From the NCBI GenBank assembly GCA_964510585.1, contig CAZECW010000207.1, forward strand, positions 1 to 7,299: a stretch of DNA of 7,299 nucleotides, read 5' to 3'. This stretch comes from an uncultured archaeon. GTDB taxonomy: Archaea; Asgardarchaeota; Jordiarchaeia; Jordiarchaeales; Jordiarchaeaceae. Positions 1 to 6,585 of the stretch are shown one piece after another (positions within the stretch are counted from its first letter, which is position 1; each line of letters begins with the position of its first letter). The position numbers were made by a program, and so were the translations under genes. The notes under the pieces were generated by a model. The model saw only the letters and a program-made list of their open reading frames with translations, had not been told where the DNA came from and searched no databases.

Positions 1-850
1 GATGGAGAGACGGCCTACACTGCCCCAGATGCGGTTCAACACGCTCAAAAGGGGCATGGAAACTACGGGCAGGGACTCAAACGCTACAAGTGCAAAACAT
101 GTGGAAGAACATTCAACGACAAGACTGGAACCCTATTCCAGTATTCCCGACTGAGCCTGAGGGAGTGGTTTATGCTCATCCTCCTCTTTTTAGCCCTGCA
201 CAACTCCATTCTGAGCATAAGCTGGTTTCTGGGCAGAAGCTACATGACCATATTTAGGGCTCTAAAGAAACTCATACTCCACATAGGTGAGGAGATGCAG
301 CCCGTGAAGATGAGTGGAGATGTTGAATGTGACGAACTCTATGTAACCGCTGGTCTTAAGGGAAGAAACAACAGCACGTGTATTAAAAGGTTGGGTCGAG
401 AGCCCCGATGCAGGGGCTTAAAAAGGCGGGGAAGAGGAACCTGGGGTGAGGATAAGCCTCCCATTTTCATCTTGGTTGAGAGGGGTGGTGGAGAGGACTA
501 TGTGCCTTCGAGCGATGTTAGTGGTGGCACTGTGGAGAAAGTTGTGGGGCGGAGGGTTTCTAAGGATTCCACTGTTTACACGGATGCCTTTACCTCCTAC
601 TCTGTCCTGGATGAGTTGGGATACCGGCATGTGGGGGTTAACCACTCGGCGGGCGAGTATGTCAGGGGTGAGGCTCACGTGAATGGATGTGAGAACCGGG
701 GCTCTTATAGTCCGGATGTGGTTTGCGTGTCACAGAGGTGTGTGTAAGGATAACCTGAGGTTCTACATGGTAGCATTTAGGGTGTGTAGAAGTTCGAGGC
801 GAAGGAATCCTGTGGAGGCCCTGAAGGATGTTCTGGCTATGGTTATTTTT
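1..850 (+). pseudogene. IS1595-family DDE transposase, 5'-truncated by the window edge, with two frameshifts
   Basis: Zn-ribbon halves WRDGLHCPRCGS (frame 3, 3-38) and GNYGQGLKRYKCKTCGRTFNDKTGT (frame 1, from ~55). Catalytic motifs VECDELY (D 331-333), VYTDAF (D 583-585) and YRHVGVNHSAGEYVRGEAHVNGCEN (E 691-693). The C-terminal segment (I)VRMWFACHRGVCKDNLRFY...EALKDVL continues in frame 2 from ~701. Frame changes fall at AAAAGGGG 47-54 and GGGG 698-701. Confidence 0.9.
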
Positions 851-900
851 TGGTTTTTGTGGGCGGTGTACTGGGATGCTTCCAAAGCCCTGGAACCAAC
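1..900 (+). mobile_element. IS1595-family insertion sequence, right portion; right boundary approximate
   Basis: Carries the transposase above. The G/T-rich, higher-GC composition gives way to AT-rich sequence at ~880-920. The terminal inverted repeat cannot be fixed because the left end is outside the window. Confidence 0.65.
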
Positions 901-924
901 CCTAAAAAAGGGTCAGCCATCCAC

Positions 925-966
925 AAAATTCTTATTTAAGAGCGGAATATTCTTAATTTGGGGTGA
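925..966 (+). promoter_or_regulatory. Possible archaeal promoter and RBS of the HEAT-repeat gene
   Basis: A-rich 925-928, then TTATTTAA 932-939. RBS GGGTGA 961-966 lies 7 nt before ATG 974. Confidence 0.4.
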
Positions 967-973
967 AAGCAAT

Positions 974-1627
974 ATGCCTTCTAAAAAATCTGGTTATTGG
1001 TATCTTTTTATTGATAGTTTTTTTGGAGATCCATATACTGCATGGCATGATGGTTTAAATATCGAAGCTTTACTTTCACTTTCGCCAGAGGAAAAGGAAG
1101 AGGCTGAGAAATTGTTGCTTGAGAGAGTGAATGAGAATGATACCAGGGCCGCGGTGGGTTTGGGTGAGCTTCGCTCAAAGAAGGCGGTTCCTAAACTAAG
1201 AGAACTTCTCGGTAAGGCTTGGGGCAAAGAGCTTGTGGACATAGCTGTAGCACTCGCCAAAATAGAAGGCGACATGTCTTACTTAAAACACGTTATAGAC
1301 GTTTTAAAAAATGATCCCTCTTGGTACGTTAGACTCGAGGCTGCTTTTAGTCTGCGCGAATTCAATAAACCGGAAGCGAAAGAAATTATGGAGGAAGTCA
1401 CCGAAACGCTGTTTGAAGCAGTGAAGGACCCGGATTACCTTGTCCGCTACCACGCATGTAATTCACTCCTAAGGTTACACGGATTTGAGGAGGAAATCTA
1501 CGAGTTCGATGAAATCTTTGATAACATCGTAAGTCCAGTGGAGGGGGAACCAACTGAGGAAGACTACAAAAAATATGAAACTGCTATTAACCAGCTGCGC
1601 AAAATGTTTGGTGAAAAGGGAAAATAA
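974..1627 (+). CDS. HEAT-repeat (PBS-lyase HEAT-like, alpha-solenoid) protein, ~217 aa
   Basis: Repeated bihelical motifs RAAVGLGELRSKKAVPKLRELL, VDIAVALAKI, DPSWYVRLEAAFSLREF, DPDYLVRYHACNSLLRL. ATG 974 has an RBS. The part of the 683-1627 ORF upstream of 974 is transposase-derived or linker sequence. Confidence 0.85.
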   Translation: MPSKKSGYWYLFIDSFFGDPYTAWHDGLNIEALLSLSPEEKEEAEKLLLERVNENDTRAAVGLGELRSKKAVPKLRELLGKAWGKELVDIAVALAKIEGDMSYLKHVIDVLKNDPSWYVRLEAAFSLREFNKPEAKEIMEEVTETLFEAVKDPDYLVRYHACNSLLRLHGFEEEIYEFDEIFDNIVSPVEGEPTEEDYKKYETAINQLRKMFGEKGK

Positions 1628-1705: not shown

Positions 1706-1883
1706 TTAAGTCTATACTGGGAATGCTGATCTTACTTTATCAAAAAATTTTTGGAAATCTCAAAATCCCCGCAAGAAACAGGAGCAGAAACTGGTAAAAA
1801 CAAAAAAAATACCAAAAAATTCACAAACGATGCGAAATGTGGGTTAAAAAACTATTTACCATTCAAAAAGGAGGATTAAATTT

Positions 1884-1897
1884 GTAAAGTTTATATA
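1884..1897 (+). promoter_or_regulatory. Archaeal BRE-TATA promoter of membrane paralog 1
   Basis: GTAAAG (1884-1889) followed by TTTATATA (1890-1897). The expected TSS (~1920-1923) sits just before RBS GGGTG 1921-1925. Confidence 0.65.
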
Positions 1898-1931
1898 GTT
1901 ATAGCTTAAATATATTAATTGGGTGTTTGAA

Positions 1932-3179
1932 GTGGGGAAGAGAAGAGGGCAGCTTAGGTCAATTGTTATCCCTGTCTTACTTTTGTCTGGAGGAGTTTTA
2001 TCCTACTTTGTAGGTTTATTTAGGGGTTTTCTGTTTTTATTTGGAGGTGCCTTATTTCAGATTGTTGATTTCAACATTGTTTTCAGTATGCCTTTTTTGG
2101 TTATGGCGTCTTATCCCCATTTTTCTATAGTTTATCTACCTAGCTTCTTCGCCCCCTATTATGGGCTCTCGCCGCTTTCTCTCTGCTTTTTGCTATGTGG
2201 AGTGGCATCTATATTTTTTGCCCTCTTCGGCAGGTATGTTGCAGCCTCTGTATTTGCCTTAGCAGCTCTAATATTTGGATTAACTCAGGTCCTACTGTTA
2301 TTCTCGATTTCTGGCTTTGATCTGACGAGAAGCGGTCTAATTGTTTTGCCCACAAGCCCCACCGGCATAACTCCTAGTGTTGTCTTATTTTTTGAAAAAA
2401 GGATTATTGTCTTAATATTTTCCATAATCCTACTTGGTGCGGGAATCACATATTGTCAGCGTATTCAACACGCTGAAGCTAAAAGGCTATTAGGTGGATT
2501 TGAAGCACCCAGTTTAGAGCATTTCAAAATACTCAAAACCACACAAATAAAGAGGACTCCTATAATTTTGCCACTTCTCATATTTCCTCTTGTAGGTATT
2601 TATGATTGGCTTTTACTACGATTAGAGTTTCCAAATTATTATTACTTCTTGGGCCTGCTTAACTGGTGGAATAATGTATTCTTCGTCAGCTTATTAATCA
2701 CTTTTTACATATTTTCGCTTTCGATTGTGGAAATTTATCGTTACAGTGATTTAAACAAGTTTTTGGCAAAGAGTTACACCTCGATAATTATCAAAACTTT
2801 GGAGAAGAACACCATTTTACCACTTGAAGTGCTTCAGAGAAGCCTTAAGGTGGAGGAAGCAAATAAAAAACATTTTGAGAACTTGATCGATAGGGTCTGT
2901 TCCGAGGCTGAAAAGCTGGGGGATCCCACAGGCATTTATAAGGGTTACGTTTTTTTGGAGAGGTCTCTGGTACAAGTAGCCCAAAGAGAAATTGGGAAGG
3001 AGGGAGAGGCGGATGTTTACAAAATAGCTTCAGAGTTACTTGTTACCCCAGAAATTCTCACAGAAATATACAGGTACTTAACGTTCGCTGGGAAAATTAA
3101 GGGGTTCATGGTGACAAGTGAAGGTTTCTTAACCAAATATGAGTATCACCCCTTCGGACTATTCAGGAGCCAAGATTGA
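1932..3179 (+). CDS. Polytopic membrane protein with C-terminal tandem winged-helix-like domains, paralog 1 (~415 aa)
   Basis: About 6 hydrophobic segments. Motifs GLFRGF, PFLVMASYPHF, HFKILK and YDWLLLRLEFPNY are shared with the two downstream ORFs. Hydrophilic C-terminal ~140 aa. Start placed at GTG 1932 (RBS GGGTG 6 nt upstream); GTG 1923 (leaderless) is the alternative. Confidence 0.85.
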   Translation: MGKRRGQLRSIVIPVLLLSGGVLSYFVGLFRGFLFLFGGALFQIVDFNIVFSMPFLVMASYPHFSIVYLPSFFAPYYGLSPLSLCFLLCGVASIFFALFGRYVAASVFALAALIFGLTQVLLLFSISGFDLTRSGLIVLPTSPTGITPSVVLFFEKRIIVLIFSIILLGAGITYCQRIQHAEAKRLLGGFEAPSLEHFKILKTTQIKRTPIILPLLIFPLVGIYDWLLLRLEFPNYYYFLGLLNWWNNVFFVSLLITFYIFSLSIVEIYRYSDLNKFLAKSYTSIIIKTLEKNTILPLEVLQRSLKVEEANKKHFENLIDRVCSEAEKLGDPTGIYKGYVFLERSLVQVAQREIGKEGEADVYKIASELLVTPEILTEIYRYLTFAGKIKGFMVTSEGFLTKYEYHPFGLFRSQD

Positions 3180-3190
3180 AGATTATTCTC

Positions 3191-3219
3191 CAACAAAAGC
3201 ATTGTTGATCGCATATCAA
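3191..3219. promoter_or_regulatory. Two overlapping palindromes upstream of the paralog 2 promoter, possible operator
   Basis: CAACAA-N5-TTGTTG (3191-3207) overlaps TTGAT-N5-ATCAA (3205-3219), ending 7 nt before the BRE. Confidence 0.3.
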
Positions 3220-3226
3220 ACAAATT

Positions 3227-3240
3227 GAAAAGTTTAAATA
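3227..3240 (+). promoter_or_regulatory. Archaeal BRE-TATA promoter of paralogs 2 and 3
   Basis: GAAAAG (3227-3232) followed by TTTAAATA (3233-3240). The expected TSS (~3263) precedes GGGGT/GGAG and ATG 3274. Confidence 0.7.
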
Positions 3241-3273
3241 TTTAGGGATTAAACAAATTCTAGGGGTCCGGAG

Positions 3274-4341
3274 ATGAAGGGCAGATACTTGGGAAATTTG
3301 GGAGAACGCCGTCTTTTAATACGCATTATGGCTTTTGCAGGGTTTCTGCTCGGTCTGGTTATCTATTTTGAGGGTTTTCTGGCTGGCTTCTTTCAGGCAT
3401 CTGCATTGTATGTTGAGTACTGGGTGTCGTCGGGCACCTATGCTTTAAGTCAATTTTTGCTTTTCGAAACATATCCTAGGTTCCTTTCAATTTTGTCGCC
3501 TGTATTTTTGGTTACTGGAAGGTTTACAACTCTCACTTTCACATTTCTTACTTTTGCATTTGGAGCGTTGGCTTCAATCTTTCTAAGCAAAGTTAGGATA
3601 GCAGTTTTTTGCAGTGTTTCAGCCTCACTAGCCGCCTTCACACAATGCATTTGTATACTGCCATTTGTGGGAGGTGAGCCCTTAGGATTAATGTTTAGTG
3701 TTCCATCGATTTTCTTCATTGCCTCTGTTTCTATTGTGTTTCCCATTTTGTTCTCTTCAAAAAATCTTTACCTTCTTATAATTCCAGCTATGCTCTTTAT
3801 GGCTGGTATGCTAATTCTATTCTTTCTGCAAATCCGCGAGAAAACAGATTTAATTTTGGGGAAGCCCCCAAGTAGCATGCATTTTAAAATTCTGAAATCT
3901 GTTTCATCAGATTTTGGAATAATATTATTATCGCCAATGCTGATATTTCTCTGGGCTTCCTTTTTCCAGATTCAAATAATTCAAAATGAGTTTCCTCACT
4001 ACCCAATTCTCGCCACCTTTGCCCATATTTCTCCTAGTAATGGACCGTTTTTACTTATTTTTTGGATCCTTTATTACCAAATCCTGCTCATTATTTTGAG
4101 AGCTCAAAAACGTGCCTTGGACGGTTTAGCTGGGCAGTGTATAGCTATTCTAGCTAAGGATTGGCAGAAACAGAAGCCGGTTATTTCACTCGCGAAGGTT
4201 ATGGAATTGTTGGGATTGGAATCCGCTGACAGAAGGCTTTTAAAAAATGTGCTTTTCAAAGCCGCCGAAACAGCTGAGCGAGACGGCACTGTTTATTTTG
4301 GAATCATAGGCAACTACATTTATTTTGAGTATCCAAATTAG
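3274..4341 (+). CDS. Membrane/winged-helix protein paralog 2, N-terminal part (TM region plus first WH-like module, 355 aa)
   Basis: Motifs GFLAGF, QFLLFETYPRF, FSSKNL, HFKILK, NEFPHY and GIIGNYIYFEYP align with paralogs 1 and 3. It stops at TAG 4339-4341, about 60 aa short of the paralogs. TTG 3298 (GERR, matching paralog 1 GKRR) is an alternative start. Confidence 0.8.
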   Translation: MKGRYLGNLGERRLLIRIMAFAGFLLGLVIYFEGFLAGFFQASALYVEYWVSSGTYALSQFLLFETYPRFLSILSPVFLVTGRFTTLTFTFLTFAFGALASIFLSKVRIAVFCSVSASLAAFTQCICILPFVGGEPLGLMFSVPSIFFIASVSIVFPILFSSKNLYLLIIPAMLFMAGMLILFFLQIREKTDLILGKPPSSMHFKILKSVSSDFGIILLSPMLIFLWASFFQIQIIQNEFPHYPILATFAHISPSNGPFLLIFWILYYQILLIILRAQKRALDGLAGQCIAILAKDWQKQKPVISLAKVMELLGLESADRRLLKNVLFKAAETAERDGTVYFGIIGNYIYFEYPN

Positions 4342-4535
4342 TGAGGGATAAGCTGCGGGAGCAAGGGGAAGTCAACCTGAGAGAAATGGCATTGGATCTA
4401 CGAGTGGAGCCAACCCTAATGAGACAAATCTGTCGGAGGCTAAAAGGAGGAGAACTGCTTGGAATTGTAAACATGACGAAGGACAAAATGGCAGCAACAA
4501 AATTTTTATTTAAAAGCTCAAAAATTATATTTTGA
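4341..4535 (+). CDS. Paralog 2 C-terminal winged-helix module (64 aa), out of frame with the N-terminal part
   Basis: VRDKLREQGEVNLREMALDLRVEPTLMRQICRRL aligns with paralog 3 AKEKIKRDGQADIEEIAIEIGVNPINLKEAYKKI and paralog 1 AQREIGKEGEADVYKIASELLVTPEILTEIYRYL. The GTG overlaps the upstream TAG (TAGTG). Confidence 0.7.
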   Translation: MRDKLREQGEVNLREMALDLRVEPTLMRQICRRLKGGELLGIVNMTKDKMAATKFLFKSSKIIF

Positions 4536-4549
4536 AGGGGGTAAAAATT

Positions 4550-5749
4550 TTGGAATTCAATTTACCTATTAGAAGGATTGTTTTACTTCTGCTCTCCTTT
4601 GGCTTATTATTCTATCTTTTGGGAAGCTTTTTGGGTTTCTTCTGGTCATATTTCTCATATTTGATTTATTTCTCGGAGTCGAAATCCTTTTATGTTGCGC
4701 CTTTTTCGGTGTTTGAACTTTATCCAAGATTTGTTCTCGCATATTCAAATGTGTGGCCTCCAATATTTTATGAAAAGTTCTCTATGTTTAGCATCATTTT
4801 TTTCGCCGCATCAATTATCGCAATTCTTTCCGCACTTTTGAATAAAACCATGTTGGCCCTAATTTTTTCTTTTTTAGCCTCCGTAGCTCTAATCACTCAT
4901 TATGGTTTGATAGGGTTTTTTGTGGGATTTCAACCAGCGGGTTTTGAAGTAAAATTTACTACGGATGTTGTGGCTGTTTTTAATGTTTTTTATTTGGTTT
5001 TTTCAAGCAAAAACTTGTCTTCAATAATTTTGGCTATTATAATGTATGTTGTCGGTGCGAATTTACTTTCCTTCAAAGTTTATAAGCAGAAGATTGAACA
5101 ATTATCTCTTGCCCAAACTCTTAAACAAAAATTTCAGAAACTTAGATCCATTAATCGATCAAACCGAGCCGCTTTTCCCATAGGATATTTTATATTACTT
5201 TTTTATGCTTGGTATGATTGGCTAGCTCCCCTCGAGTTTCCATATTATAACCCTATCTCACATTTTTGGTTGACCTTTTGGTACGGTTTCATATACTTTT
5301 TTATTTTAATCTCTGTTCCAGCAGTTCTTGAGCATAGGGCAACCATTCAGTCCAGAAAACTACTGGCTGAAGCACTCATACCATTGCTTGAAAGGAAGTT
5401 GATGAGTAATAGTCCTCTGATTCAAATTTGGGACTTTAAAAGTGAGCTTGGACTTGATTCTATAGACAGGGTGGATTTCAGATTAGTTTTAAAGAATTCT
5501 TTGAAGATGATTGGGCAGAAGGAAAATATTCGCTTCGGATTTTTAAGAAATTACTTTTACTTTGTGGAGCCCCTGGTAGATATAGCTAAGGAAAAGATTA
5601 AGAGGGATGGACAAGCAGATATTGAAGAAATCGCAATTGAAATAGGTGTGAATCCAATAAATCTTAAAGAGGCTTACAAGAAAATTGTGAAGAAGAAGAT
5701 GTTTGAAAACGTGAAAATAGTTAGAGGAAAAATTTTGCCAGTCTATTAG
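4550..5749 (+). CDS. Membrane/winged-helix protein paralog 3 (~399 aa)
   Basis: Motifs GSFLGF, PFSVFELYPRF, FSSKNL, YDWLAPLEFPYY, FGFLRNYFYFVEP. Start placed at TTG 4550, after RBS GGGGG 4537-4541; TTG 4532 is the alternative. Confidence 0.85.
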   Translation: MEFNLPIRRIVLLLLSFGLLFYLLGSFLGFFWSYFSYLIYFSESKSFYVAPFSVFELYPRFVLAYSNVWPPIFYEKFSMFSIIFFAASIIAILSALLNKTMLALIFSFLASVALITHYGLIGFFVGFQPAGFEVKFTTDVVAVFNVFYLVFSSKNLSSIILAIIMYVVGANLLSFKVYKQKIEQLSLAQTLKQKFQKLRSINRSNRAAFPIGYFILLFYAWYDWLAPLEFPYYNPISHFWLTFWYGFIYFFILISVPAVLEHRATIQSRKLLAEALIPLLERKLMSNSPLIQIWDFKSELGLDSIDRVDFRLVLKNSLKMIGQKENIRFGFLRNYFYFVEPLVDIAKEKIKRDGQADIEEIAIEIGVNPINLKEAYKKIVKKKMFENVKIVRGKILPVY

Positions 5750-5781
5750 ACCAGCGTCTAAGCAATTTTTAAAAATTTTTC
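5746..5781. terminator. Possible bidirectional terminator between convergent genes
   Basis: TTAGAC-CAGC-GTCTAA hairpin (5746-5761), then T5-A5-T6 (5766-5781), which gives oligo-T on both strands. Confidence 0.35.
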
Positions 5782-6464
5782 AGCTCTATCCCCTTCTTTT
5801 CTAGCCTAAAATCAGTAATATCCAAATATATGGCATCTTCGCGAAGTATCTTCCGGACTCCTGTAATCCCGATTCTTTTTTTGAATATTGGACCGTCGTA
5901 GACAAAAGTGTGATACTCTCCCAATTCTCCTAAGATGTCCACATTTTTGCTACGGTTAATTCTAACCAAATCATCTAGGAAGTCTTGGTCAAGTTTGCGT
6001 CCCAACCATTCTTCCCCCAAAAGTTCCCTTTTAACCATAATTACAACCGCCTCGAAGCCCAATTTGATAAATTCTCTAAAAATATCTTCGGGTTCATTGT
6101 TGAAGAGGGGTGACAGAGCTTTTATTCCCAGTTCTCTGCATACACGCTCAGTCCACTCCTTGTGTTCTGCAACCCACACATCGCCAAAGATGCATCCCCC
6201 TATTCCCCTGGGCTTTAGGTCATTAACCAGCTCCTTGAATCCCTGCTCATAACTCTCCCAGGTAACCTCTTTTGTAACTAGGGGAATCCCAATGGCTTCA
6301 GCCTGAGCCTTCAACAGATCCACGTTGAGTGCATGCGACATAGACCTGCCAAAGCTTGAAACAAAACTCATCAAGTATGAAACCCTAAAGCCGTCACGGA
6401 GAGCACTGTAGAGCGATAGCGCACTCTCTTTACCACCACTCCAAGACACAACAAACTCACACAA
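5769..6464 (-). CDS. Dph6-like (diphthine--ammonia ligase / DUF71 / MJ0570-type) PP-loop ATP pyrophosphatase, ~231 aa
   Basis: VSWSGGKES P-loop, RSMSH, LKAQAEAIGIPL, IFGDVWVAEHKEWTERVC and DILGELGEYHTFVYDGPIF are all typical of the family. Start placed at TTG 6464 (RBS GGTGG 5 nt upstream). Orthology to true Dph6 is not certain, so no symbol is given. Confidence 0.88.
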   Translation of the reverse strand: MCEFVVSWSGGKESALSLYSALRDGFRVSYLMSFVSSFGRSMSHALNVDLLKAQAEAIGIPLVTKEVTWESYEQGFKELVNDLKPRGIGGCIFGDVWVAEHKEWTERVCRELGIKALSPLFNNEPEDIFREFIKLGFEAVVIMVKRELLGEEWLGRKLDQDFLDDLVRINRSKNVDILGELGEYHTFVYDGPIFKKRIGITGVRKILREDAIYLDITDFRLEKKGIELKNF

Positions 6465-6585
6465 CAAAACCACCAACCAAAGACAAAACATAACTCCCAT
6501 AGCACTACCCAAAAAATCCAGAAAGGTAGGAGCTAACCACCAAATTAAGCTTTCTGGTGGAAACCTTCTCCGATTACTATGAACA

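What the first reader, a model, noticed from the sequence alone, without database searches (positions are those of the whole stretch)
1932..5749. Tandem trio of diverged, unrecognised ~6-TM membrane proteins: candidate heteromeric membrane complex or receptor family
Three adjacent co-directional genes of ~415, ~420 (reconstructed) and ~399 aa are collinear along their whole length but share only short motifs. These are G-x-F/L-x-GF in TM1; (P/Q)F-x3-[AE]-x-YP[RH]F in the first loop; F-[SF]-[SE]-K-[NR]-[LI] before TM4; a basic linker (HFKILK/KFQKLR); (YDWL)...EFP-x-Y between the last two TMs; and G-x3-[GN]Y-x-[FY] in the tail. The positive-inside pattern suggests N-in/C-in with a 4-TM block carrying two outer loops, a cytosolic linker, a 2-TM hairpin and a cytosolic tail. 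Old duplicates kept together, with conserved outward-facing aromatic/proline motifs, fit either subunits of one hetero-oligomer or a diversified sensor family. I cannot assign them to a known transporter or receptor family.
Basis: partly seen in the sequence, partly recalled or inferred. Interest (0 to 1): 0.78.

Follow-up and report, generated by a model that had tools for sequence, protein, structure and literature searches.

The report
Orphan Asgard membrane proteins, winged-helix tails
Three neighbouring genes of a hot-spring Asgard archaeon (Jordarchaeum) encode related six-helix membrane proteins from a family found only in that genus; each joins a claudin-shaped outer module to a pair of winged-helix domains inside the cell, the copies are gained, broken and lost separately between strains, and their function is still unknown.

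Summary
Genes g1 (1923-3179), g2 (3274-4341 plus 4341-4535) and g3 (4532-5749) are collinear paralogues: BLASTP E 5e-11 to 2e-22 at 23-28% identity. The predicted topology is six TM helices, N-in/C-in.

No Pfam, NCBIfam, PADLOC or PHROGs family matches. Exhaustive phmmer found only 28 relatives among 1.84 billion representatives. Among 400 Asgard genomes the family occurs only in the window's own genus.

The AF2 model (pLDDT 80) shows:
- a TM hairpin capped by an invariant EFPxY turn;
- a stalk helix;
- two cytosolic winged helices resembling ESCRT-II, UFL1/DDRGK1 and SelB tandem WH.

An obligate hetero-trimer is unlikely:
- a closed congeneric genome has one copy, another none, another only a relic;
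- the window's g2 carries a real 7-nt deletion that sister strains lack;
- those sister strains instead carry a 461-nt deletion in g1.

dN/dS is about 0.3, so the genes are coding but accessory.

My best reading is a membrane-anchored winged-helix adaptor or transducer. The mechanism is inferred, not shown. This scan earlier noted a claudin-fold protein in a different archaeon (e1-5333027).

The parts
1923..3179 (+). g1: intact paralogue, 418 aa (415 aa if started at GTG 1932); 6 TM plus tandem WH tail
   Evidence: ORF and translation. Family profile match E 2.5e-134 over positions 2-404. g1 clade starred in the tree. dN/dS 0.30 against its orthologue.
3274..4341 (+). g2, N-terminal piece: 355 aa holding the membrane domain and WH1; ends at TAG 4339-4341 after a frameshift
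   Evidence: Profile positions 3-344. Intact 413-aa orthologue P0008 in L004.
4333..4341 (+). Frameshift site in g2: 7 nt (CTTAGTA) missing after 4334 compared with sister strains, where the text reads YPLVKLVRDKL in one frame
   Evidence: Contigs laid from four hot-spring metagenomes: the insertion is present in X3 and X4 and absent in X1 and X2. Three-frame reading.
4341..4535 (+). g2, C-terminal piece: 64-aa ORF holding WH2, in another frame
   Evidence: Profile positions 345-400, E 1.4e-9. Aligns with WH2 of g1 and g3.
4532..5749 (+). g3: intact paralogue, 405 aa from TTG 4532 (399 aa from TTG 4550, as in the database entry P0005)
   Evidence: AF2 model pLDDT 80.2, pTM 0.75. dN/dS 0.33-0.35.
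4547..5107 (+). g3 residues 6-192: 4-TM bundle with a five-stranded exofacial sheet (three strands in loop 1, a long hairpin in loop 2); claudin/TARP-like architecture
5171..5335 (+). g3 residues 214-268: TM5-TM6 hairpin with the invariant E235-F-P-x-Y outer turn
5417..5746 (+). g3 residues 296-405: cytosolic tandem winged helices, WH1 296-344 and WH2 345-405, on a stalk helix continuing from TM6
1890..1897 (+). TATA-like TTTATATA 33 nt before GTG 1923; possible promoter of a leaderless g1 transcript (inference from sequence only)
   Evidence: Sequence.
3233..3240 (+). TATA-like TTTAAATA 34 nt before ATG 3274 of g2 (inference from sequence only)
   Evidence: Sequence.

Best explanation
The trio is a tandem array of three anciently diverged paralogues of an orphan protein family restricted, as far as sampled, to the genus Jordarchaeum (Asgard archaea from hot springs).

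Each protein is a six-TM, N-in/C-in envelope protein built from four parts:
(i) a four-helix bundle carrying a five-stranded exofacial beta-sheet, an architecture like claudin/TARP tetraspans;
(ii) a basic cytosolic linker and a TM hairpin, whose outer turn (invariant Glu-Phe-Pro-x-Tyr) sits beside the other conserved exofacial residues (Tyr-Pro of loop 1, Lys-Asn of loop 2);
(iii) a stalk helix that continues TM6 into the cytosol;
(iv) two winged-helix domains of the tandem-WH type seen in DDRGK1/UFL1, ESCRT-II and SelB.

Proposed mechanism (inferred, not shown): each paralogue works on its own, or as a homo-oligomer, as a membrane-anchored adaptor or transducer. The conserved outer face binds or senses something at the cell surface. 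The tandem WH platform, held at the inner face of the membrane, recruits a cytosolic partner. A protein or ribonucleoprotein partner is somewhat more likely than DNA.

The paralogues are diversified variants, not obligate subunits of one complex. They are accessory genes in rapid birth-and-death turnover. In the window's strain g2 is split by a recent 7-nt deletion.

My odds: descriptive part (family, architecture, turnover, no obligate heterotrimer) about 0.85; adaptor/transducer mechanism about 0.4.
For: Paralogy: BLASTP E 5e-11 to 2e-22.

Orphan status:
- no Pfam, NCBIfam, PADLOC or PHROGs match;
- 28 hits among 1.84e9 representatives;
- found only in genus g1 among 400 Asgard genomes;
- one relative is named Candidatus Jordarchaeum sp..

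Real coding genes: dN/dS 0.30-0.36, against 0.10-0.21 for the neighbouring PF01902 gene. AF2 pLDDT 80, pTM 0.75.

Topology: positive-inside counts.

Outer-face conservation: Y64, P65 and E235 at 100%; P237, G132, G137, K160 and N161 at 80% or more.

Claudin-like block: 8 of the top 13 VIA rows are claudin-superfamily tetraspans with 114-141 aligned residues.

Tandem WH tail:
- Foldseek probability 0.99-1.0 to VPS36, UFL1/DDRGK1 and SelB;
- Atlas rows are SelB, UFL1 and an Asgard DDRGK/UFL1/PCI cluster;
- hhalign of the tail profile to an Asgard 789-aa PCI/UFL1/DDRGK protein spans both WHs, probability 81.5%, E 1.1e-5.

Individually dispensable members:
- closed genome G005 has one copy at the syntenic locus;
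- G003 has none, and G004 has only a 64-aa WH2 relic;
- the G002 copies are all split;
- L020 carries g1+g2 only;
- g1 is frameshifted in L004/G001 by a 2-nt deletion;
- the window's g2 deletion is absent in the X3/X4 strains, which instead lack 461 nt of g1.
Against: No functional data of any kind.

The DDRGK/UFL1-type assignment of the tail is weak at sequence level:
- no Pfam threshold is met;
- two of the three other weak hits in the same genome search were clearly spurious;
- the genome has no detectable UFL1, Ufm1 or UFC1;
- its own Vps25 shows no profile similarity to the tail.

WH2 also gives weak hits to DNA-binding wHTH families: Rrf2 in 6 of 23 members (best 3.3e-6), MarR, GntR, Lrs14 and IdeR. 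A DNA partner is therefore not excluded.

Frequent frameshifts could also mean the family is simply decaying.

No conserved partner gene was found. The only constant neighbour is a convergently oriented PF01902 gene.
Confidence: 0.45

Rival explanations
1. One-component, membrane-tethered transcription regulators. The membrane/exofacial module senses a signal. WH2, a classical winged helix-turn-helix, binds DNA at the membrane, as ToxR or CadC do in bacteria. The three paralogues would be sensors of different specificity.
Against: None of these matches reaches a curated threshold. Recognition-helix positions are not conserved, and in the g1 clade they are hydrophobic and near neutral (WH2 charge -2 to +3). 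The best matches for the two-domain tail as a unit are protein- or RNA-binding tandem WH proteins. No conserved target gene or operon partner lies next to the cluster.
Confidence: 0.28
2. One reading: g1, g2 and g3 are obligate subunits of one hetero-oligomeric membrane complex.
For: The gene order g1-g2-g3 is kept in the window and in L004/G001, with g2-g3 also in L005. The three paralogue clades are old and each is retained in several species. g2 and g3 abut, and so are probably co-transcribed.
Against: A closed genome of the same genus has one copy at the same locus. One genome has none and one only a relic. L020 has g1+g2 without g3. In near-identical strains, either g2 (7-nt deletion) or g1 (461-nt deletion) is broken while the others stay intact. 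In L004/G001 g1 is frameshifted.
Confidence: 0.08
3. A channel, transporter or membrane enzyme whose active site is formed by the conserved exofacial and intramembrane residues (E235, K160/N161, Y64/P65). The WH tail would serve only as a regulatory or anchoring appendage.
For: There is an invariant acidic residue at the membrane boundary and conserved Gly/Pro motifs at helix ends. A small-xxx-small pattern in TM1 (G24, Y28, G31, G35) suggests tight helix packing.
Against: No match to any transporter, channel or enzyme family by sequence or by fold. There are very few conserved polar residues inside the membrane. The family is dispensable and narrowly distributed.
Confidence: 0.07
4. A decaying lineage-specific family with no present function; the ORFs are remnants on the way to loss.
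For: The rate of frameshifts, deletions and relics is high across the genus and between strains. Mobile-element sequences flank the cluster in this genome.
Against: dN/dS of 0.30-0.36 over about 0.6 synonymous substitutions per site shows sustained purifying selection on all three orthologue pairs. Three paralogue clades have been maintained across species. Motifs are conserved and the fold is confidently predicted.
Confidence: 0.1

Closest known systems
DDRGK1 (with UFL1), the ER-membrane anchor of the UFM1 ligase; also the Asgard multi-WH PCI/UFL1/DDRGK proteins
   Different: DDRGK1 has a single TM helix and no exofacial module; here the anchor is a six-TM domain. No Pfam threshold is met. 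The genome shows no UFL1, Ufm1 or UFC1, so the protein cannot be part of a UFMylation pathway as known.
ESCRT-II subunits (VPS36/VPS22/VPS25) and other tandem winged-helix scaffolds (SelB C-terminus, kite proteins)
   Different: All of these are soluble proteins. The tail shows no sequence relation to the genome's own Vps25 (hhalign 1.25%). The genes are not in the ESCRT locus, which lies on another contig.
Claudin / PMP22 / MP20 / TARP / Cav-gamma / LHFPL tetraspans
Membrane-bound one-component wHTH regulators (for example ToxR/CadC-type in bacteria; Rrf2/MarR/GntR-type wHTH domains)
   Same: A winged helix-turn-helix is tethered to the membrane. There are weak profile hits of WH2 to Rrf2, MarR, GntR, Lrs14 and IdeR.
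   Different: ToxR and CadC have an N-terminal OmpR-type wHTH and one TM helix. Here the WHs are C-terminal, tandem and behind six TM helices. No threshold-level match was found, and no DNA-binding residues are conserved.

Membership tests
Claudin/PMP22/TARP superfamily (Pfam PF00822, PF13903, PF10242) | Significant match to a family profile | tested here: not met
   No Pfam hit at E up to 1 for g1, g2 or g3. No NCBIfam hit.
Claudin/PMP22/TARP superfamily (Pfam PF00822, PF13903, PF10242) | Four-TM bundle with an exofacial beta-sheet (claudin fold) | tested here: inconclusive
Claudin/PMP22/TARP superfamily (Pfam PF00822, PF13903, PF10242) | W-(G)LW-C-C signature with a disulfide in loop 1 | tested here: not met
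   Loop 1 of all aligned members lacks the motif and has no conserved cysteine.
DDRGK1/UFL1/PCI-type winged helix | Pfam PF09756, PF09743 or PF01399 above the gathering score | tested here: not met
   Only 2 of 23 tails hit E3_UFM1_ligase, best E 0.019. There are no DDRGK or PCI hits.
DDRGK1/UFL1/PCI-type winged helix | WH fold superposable on DDRGK1/UFL1, in a tandem arrangement | tested here: met
DDRGK1/UFL1/PCI-type winged helix | Profile-level homology to a bona fide family member | tested here: inconclusive
   hhalign of the tail profile against an Asgard 789-aa PCI/UFL1/DDRGK protein: probability 81.5%, E 1.1e-5, 98 columns. Other hits at a similar E in the same search were spurious.
DDRGK1/UFL1/PCI-type winged helix | UFM1 pathway partners (UFL1, Ufm1, UFC1) encoded in the same genome | tested here: not met
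   No UFL1, Ufm1 or UFC1 match in G000, which is 96% complete. The UFC1 control rang in no control genome, so that one test is weak. DDRGK appears only at E 0.0079, below the cut-off.
ESCRT-II (Vps22/Vps25/Vps36) | Match to PF05871 or PF04157, or to the genome's own Vps25 | tested here: not met
   No Pfam hit. hhalign of the tail against G000's Vps25 gives probability 1.25%. The genuine Vps25 sits with Vps4 on another contig.
ESCRT-II (Vps22/Vps25/Vps36) | Tandem WH fold | tested here: met
   VPS36 chains 2zme_B (E 4.9e-3) and 3cuq_B (probability 1.0, rmsd 5.2 A over 148 columns); Odin Vps25 7pb9 probability 0.89.
wHTH transcription factors (Rrf2/MarR/GntR/Lrs14) | Family profile above threshold | tested here: inconclusive
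   Rrf2 in 6/23 tails (best 3.3e-6) and MarR in 3/23 (7.6e-4). The window's own g3 tail has no such hit. PDB profile hits are at E 0.003-0.07.
wHTH transcription factors (Rrf2/MarR/GntR/Lrs14) | Sequence-specific DNA binding | not testable with these tools
   Needs EMSA or DAP-seq with purified tails.
   No Pfam or NCBIfam hit. The fold searches of the membrane domain returned no transporter as a convincing match.

The most novel reading that the evidence does not exclude
The family is an Asgard invention of a eukaryote-style membrane organiser. A claudin-fold tetraspan would have a built-in tandem-WH tail acting like DDRGK1 or ESCRT-II, docking a cytosolic machine (ribosome, ESCRT-III or another WH-binding complex) onto a defined patch of the cell membrane in response to what the outer sheet contacts. 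It would be a prokaryotic analogue, or a distant relative, of membrane-tethered WH scaffolds so far known only from eukaryotic endomembranes.
Probability: 0.1. Interest if true: 0.8.

Novelty: new variant of a known kind. Interest (0 to 1): 0.45.

Why it matters
Asgard archaea are searched closely for proteins that foreshadow eukaryotic membrane organisation. This family joins two folds typical of eukaryotic membrane biology in one polypeptide: a claudin/TARP-like tetraspan, and a DDRGK1/ESCRT-II-like tandem winged helix. I found no description of that architecture in Pfam, NCBIfam, the PDB or the paper searches I ran.

If the tail recruits a cytosolic machine to the membrane, it would be a simple, testable model of membrane-tethered WH scaffolding in a prokaryote.

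Against this, the family is confined to one genus, is dispensable, and turns over quickly. Its general importance is therefore probably modest. It may simply be a lineage-specific surface or sensor family.

The strain-level data also give a clean example of alternative knock-outs of paralogues within one natural population.

Tried and rejected
- Homodimer prediction of g3 (complex prediction): no verdict (score 0.00, controls not run). It counts neither for nor against self-association. The hetero-complex could not be tested because only one job is allowed.
- Stop-codon recoding as an explanation for the g2 break: rejected. Reading through TAG 4339 runs straight into TGA and nonsense. The downstream homology is in another frame, and sister strains show a 7-nt indel.
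- Phase variation by homopolymer slippage: rejected. None of the four frameshift sites inspected lies in a simple repeat.
- Matches of the tail to designer beta-propellers (Bagel/Cake/Scone, E down to 4.7e-11): rejected. They come from one 20-residue hairpin motif (GxIYxGxxxxYxY) counted up to nine times in repeat proteins. The long proteins P0033, P0034 and P0037 (6-8 stretches each) probably have the same cause, but I did not inspect them.
- Viral origin: no convincing BFVD fold match and no PHROG. Defence system: no PADLOC hit.
- Language-model Atlas look-ups: nothing usable.
- Profile search with the membrane domain alone: only family members.
- Weak genome hits G017 (stops inside, TM-biased) and G287 (GatE): spurious.
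- RNA evidence: no RNA holder was listed among public runs, so expression is untested.
- Rfam and tRNA scans of the window: nothing found.
- Paper searches found no claudin-like protein described in archaea. Only three searches were run.

Full report
WHAT IS THERE

The window is a whole 7,299-bp contig (G000:C207) of a 3.8-Mb, 96%-complete genome. Three co-directional ORFs fill 1923-5749:
- g1, 1923-3179, 418 aa;
- g2, 3274-4341, 355 aa, followed in another frame by a 64-aa ORF at 4341-4535;
- g3, 4532-5749, 405 aa, or 399 aa from TTG 4550, as in the database entry.

Pairwise BLASTP shows all three are homologous, with g1-g3 and g2-g3 aligning along almost their whole length (the g1-g2 alignment covers only about the last 225 residues): g1-g2 E 5e-11 (27% identity), g1-g3 E 5e-14 (23%), g2-g3 E 2e-22 (28%). 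The 64-aa ORF aligns with the last domain of g1 and g3.

Flanking genes:
- an IS1595-type transposase fragment (1-747);
- a HEAT-repeat protein (683-1627);
- on the minus strand, a PF01902 diphthamide-synthase-like gene (5769-6512).

WHO HAS IT

The best named relative is a hypothetical protein of Candidatus Jordarchaeum sp.. The DNA occurs in hot-spring metagenomes from several studies.

An exhaustive phmmer search of 1.84 billion representatives found 28 hits, nearly all family members or fragments of them. A profile search of 400 Asgard genomes found the family only in the window's genus: its own genome plus four of five other species. It was found in 0 of 5 genomes of the sister family. 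Pfam, NCBIfam, PADLOC and PHROGs gave nothing.

The cluster sits at a fixed locus. It lies between an arabinofuranosidase/alpha-beta-hydrolase pair and the PF01902 gene, which is followed by a radical-SAM gene.

ARCHITECTURE

AF2 on a 23-sequence alignment gives a confident model of g3: pLDDT 80.2, pTM 0.75. A second model of residues 1-292 alone agrees with it. In order along the chain:
- TM1;
- an outer loop with three strands (58-83);
- TM2 and TM3;
- a long outer beta-hairpin (136-161);
- TM4;
- a basic cytosolic linker;
- TM5;
- a short outer turn;
- TM6, which continues as a stalk helix to residue 291;
- two winged helices, WH1 296-344 and WH2 345-405, both at pLDDT about 90.

Inside loops carry 0.20 K/R per residue against 0.04 outside, which supports N-in/C-in.

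The most conserved residues are in three groups:
- a small-residue ladder in TM1 (G24, Y28, G31, G35, F36);
- exofacial positions: Y64-P65 (100%), G132, G137, K160-N161 and E235 (100%)-F-P-x-Y;
- structural positions of the two WHs.

FOLD COMPARISONS

For the tail, Foldseek's best rows are tandem-WH proteins:
- ESCRT-II VPS36 (E 4.9e-3; probability 0.99-1.0);
- UFL1/DDRGK1 (7.8e-3);
- SelB (TM 0.59 by target);
- Odinarchaeota Vps25.

At sequence level the tail profile gives only sub-threshold hits. These are Rrf2 (6/23 members, best 3.3e-6), HTH_47, MarR, FeoC and E3_UFM1_ligase, and in the PDB GntR-like, Lrs14 and MarR proteins.

The one informative remote hit is a 789-aa protein from another Asgard family carrying PCI, E3_UFM1_ligase, DDRGK, FeoC and a VPS28-like C-terminus. 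hhalign aligns both WHs of the tail to its DDRGK/UFL1 region, with probability 81.5% and E 1.1e-5 over 98 columns. I treat this as suggestive only, because the two other hits of similar E in that search were false.

The genome itself has no detectable UFL1, Ufm1 or UFC1. It does have a Vps4-Vps25 locus elsewhere, but the tail is unrelated in sequence to that Vps25.

For the membrane domain, Foldseek and the Atlas find nothing. The best Foldseek E is 0.37, and claudin-3 appears at E 1.2.

The exhaustive VIA-align search behaves differently. Both with the full model and with the membrane domain alone, it places claudin-superfamily tetraspans in most top ranks:
- TARP gamma-8 and gamma-7;
- MP20;
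- a designed claudin fold;
- Cav gamma-1;
- GARLH4;
- claudin-19 and claudin-4.

EVOLUTIONARY DYNAMICS

This is the clearest result.

A maximum-likelihood tree resolves three well-supported paralogue clades. Each clade contains members from several species, so the duplications predate the sampled species.

Orthologue pairs between the window and L004 are 66-71% identical, with dN/dS 0.30-0.33. The neighbouring PF01902 gene gives 0.10-0.21. The genes are thus coding and constrained, but fast-evolving.

Copy content at the locus varies widely:

| Genome or assembly | Content at the locus |
|---|---|
| G000 (the window) | g1, g2 (split), g3 |
| G001 = L004 | g1 (split by a 2-nt deletion), g2, g3, plus a partial copy elsewhere |
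| L005 | g2, g3 |
| L020 | g1, g2 only |
| G005 (closed genome) | one copy, of a separate small clade |
| G002 | two copies, each split, plus a lone WH2 piece |
| G004 | only a 64-aa WH2 relic |
| G003 | nothing found |

I laid contigs from four independent hot-spring metagenomes on the window:
- Strains about 97% identical to the window (X3, X4) have seven more bases (CTTAGTA) after position 4334. These restore one continuous g2 frame.
- X2 shares the window's deleted allele.
- X3 and X4 lack 461 nt of g1 (2139-2599), which is not a multiple of three.

So within one species-level population either g1 or g2 is knocked out while the others remain. That is hard to reconcile with an obligate three-subunit complex. 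It fits diversified, individually dispensable paralogues.

INTERPRETATION

Shown:
- paralogy;
- orphan status and genus restriction;
- six-TM N-in/C-in topology, by prediction and charge bias;
- a tandem-WH tail, by confident fold prediction and consistent matches;
- purifying selection;
- rapid gain and loss.

Inferred: each protein couples a conserved outer surface to a WH platform at the inner face of the membrane.

I rank the possible partners of the WH platform as follows:
1. A protein or ribonucleoprotein partner (DDRGK1/ESCRT-II-like adaptor). The two WHs match such scaffolds as a unit, and the only remote sequence link points the same way.
2. DNA (a membrane-tethered one-component regulator), close behind. 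WH2 on its own looks like an ordinary prokaryotic wHTH and is basic in two of the three clades.

A transporter or enzyme role and pure decay are less likely, for the reasons given under the rival explanations. The fast turnover would suit a protein exposed to a changing outside world such as viruses, neighbours or substrates, but nothing tested here addresses that.

NOVELTY AND SCORE

The individual folds are known. The combination of a claudin-like tetraspan, a TM hairpin and a tandem WH is not in the libraries searched. Three paper searches found no claudin-like protein described in archaea.

Another agent of this scan reported a claudin-fold cassette in a Poseidoniales genome (e1-5333027). 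I did not check that note, and it concerns unrelated DNA.

Because the family is narrow and dispensable and its function is unproven, I score interest at 0.45 and file it as a new variant of a known kind (membrane-anchored winged-helix proteins). I give about 10% to the more exciting reading, that it is a prokaryotic membrane-tethered WH scaffold of the DDRGK1/ESCRT-II kind.

Noticed in passing
window 1790-1850: A dispersed repeat of about 55 nt lies just upstream of g1. There are 11 other copies at 75-96% identity on other contigs of G000. In the metagenome contigs this stretch has several-fold higher depth, and many contigs end or diverge at 1803/1845. It is possibly a MITE or an IS end, and probably the reason the upstream synteny differs from relatives.
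   Followed up: partly
window 1-1627: The contig starts with an IS1595-family (ISXO2-like DDE) transposase fragment with a zinc-finger-like N-terminus (1-747), followed by a HEAT/PBS-lyase-repeat protein (683-1627). Neither is next to the cluster in relatives, where an arabinofuranosidase and an alpha/beta hydrolase lie upstream. This points to a rearrangement on this side.
   Followed up: partly
window 2139-2599 (strains in runs X3, X4): Sister strains about 97% identical carry a 461-nt deletion inside g1, removing roughly residues 73-226. A minor contig in X4 (depth 3.5) still covers part of the region, so both alleles may coexist in that spring.
   Followed up: partly
window 4490-4540: The 3' end of g2 and its junction with g3 are an indel hotspot between strains: several 1-9-nt differences in X3 and X4. 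The C-terminal residues of g2 and the start of g3 therefore differ between strains.
   Followed up: no
window 5769-6512 (-): A PF01902 gene (diphthamide synthase / DPH6-like ATP-binding domain) lies convergent to g3. It is the one constant neighbour of the cluster in every locus examined, and in relatives it is followed by a radical-SAM gene.
   Followed up: partly
L010 1555-1749 (G004:C188): At the syntenic locus of another species, only a 64-aa ORF remains. It is a g3-type WH2 with a start codon and no internal stops. Similar lone WH2 pieces occur in G002 and, through the frameshift, in the window (4341-4535). Whether stand-alone WH2 peptides are made is unknown.
   Followed up: no
L023 (G000:C140:7535-10870) and L026 (G000:C146): The same genome has an ESCRT locus: a Vps4-like AAA ATPase (388 aa, called from its sequence, no Pfam scan) next to a 243-aa protein that matches Pfam ESCRT-II/Vps25 (PF05871, E 5.6e-13). 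A region on C146 also gives a weak hit (E 3.8e-5) to the part of an Asgard protein that carries a sub-threshold VPS28 match.
   Followed up: partly
L024 551-2920 (-) (G235:C106): A 789-aa protein of another Asgard family combines three PCI-type WH matches, E3_UFM1_ligase, DDRGK and FeoC matches, and a VPS28-like C-terminal domain (that last match is below Pfam's cut-off). It looks like a multi-WH array apparently joined to an ESCRT-I module.
   Followed up: partly
window 3450-3746 (-): A 98-aa antisense ORF inside g2 is also present in L004 (8915-9184). Its conservation follows from the conserved sense gene, and there is no evidence that it is a gene.
   Followed up: partly
I did not examine it.
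   Followed up: no
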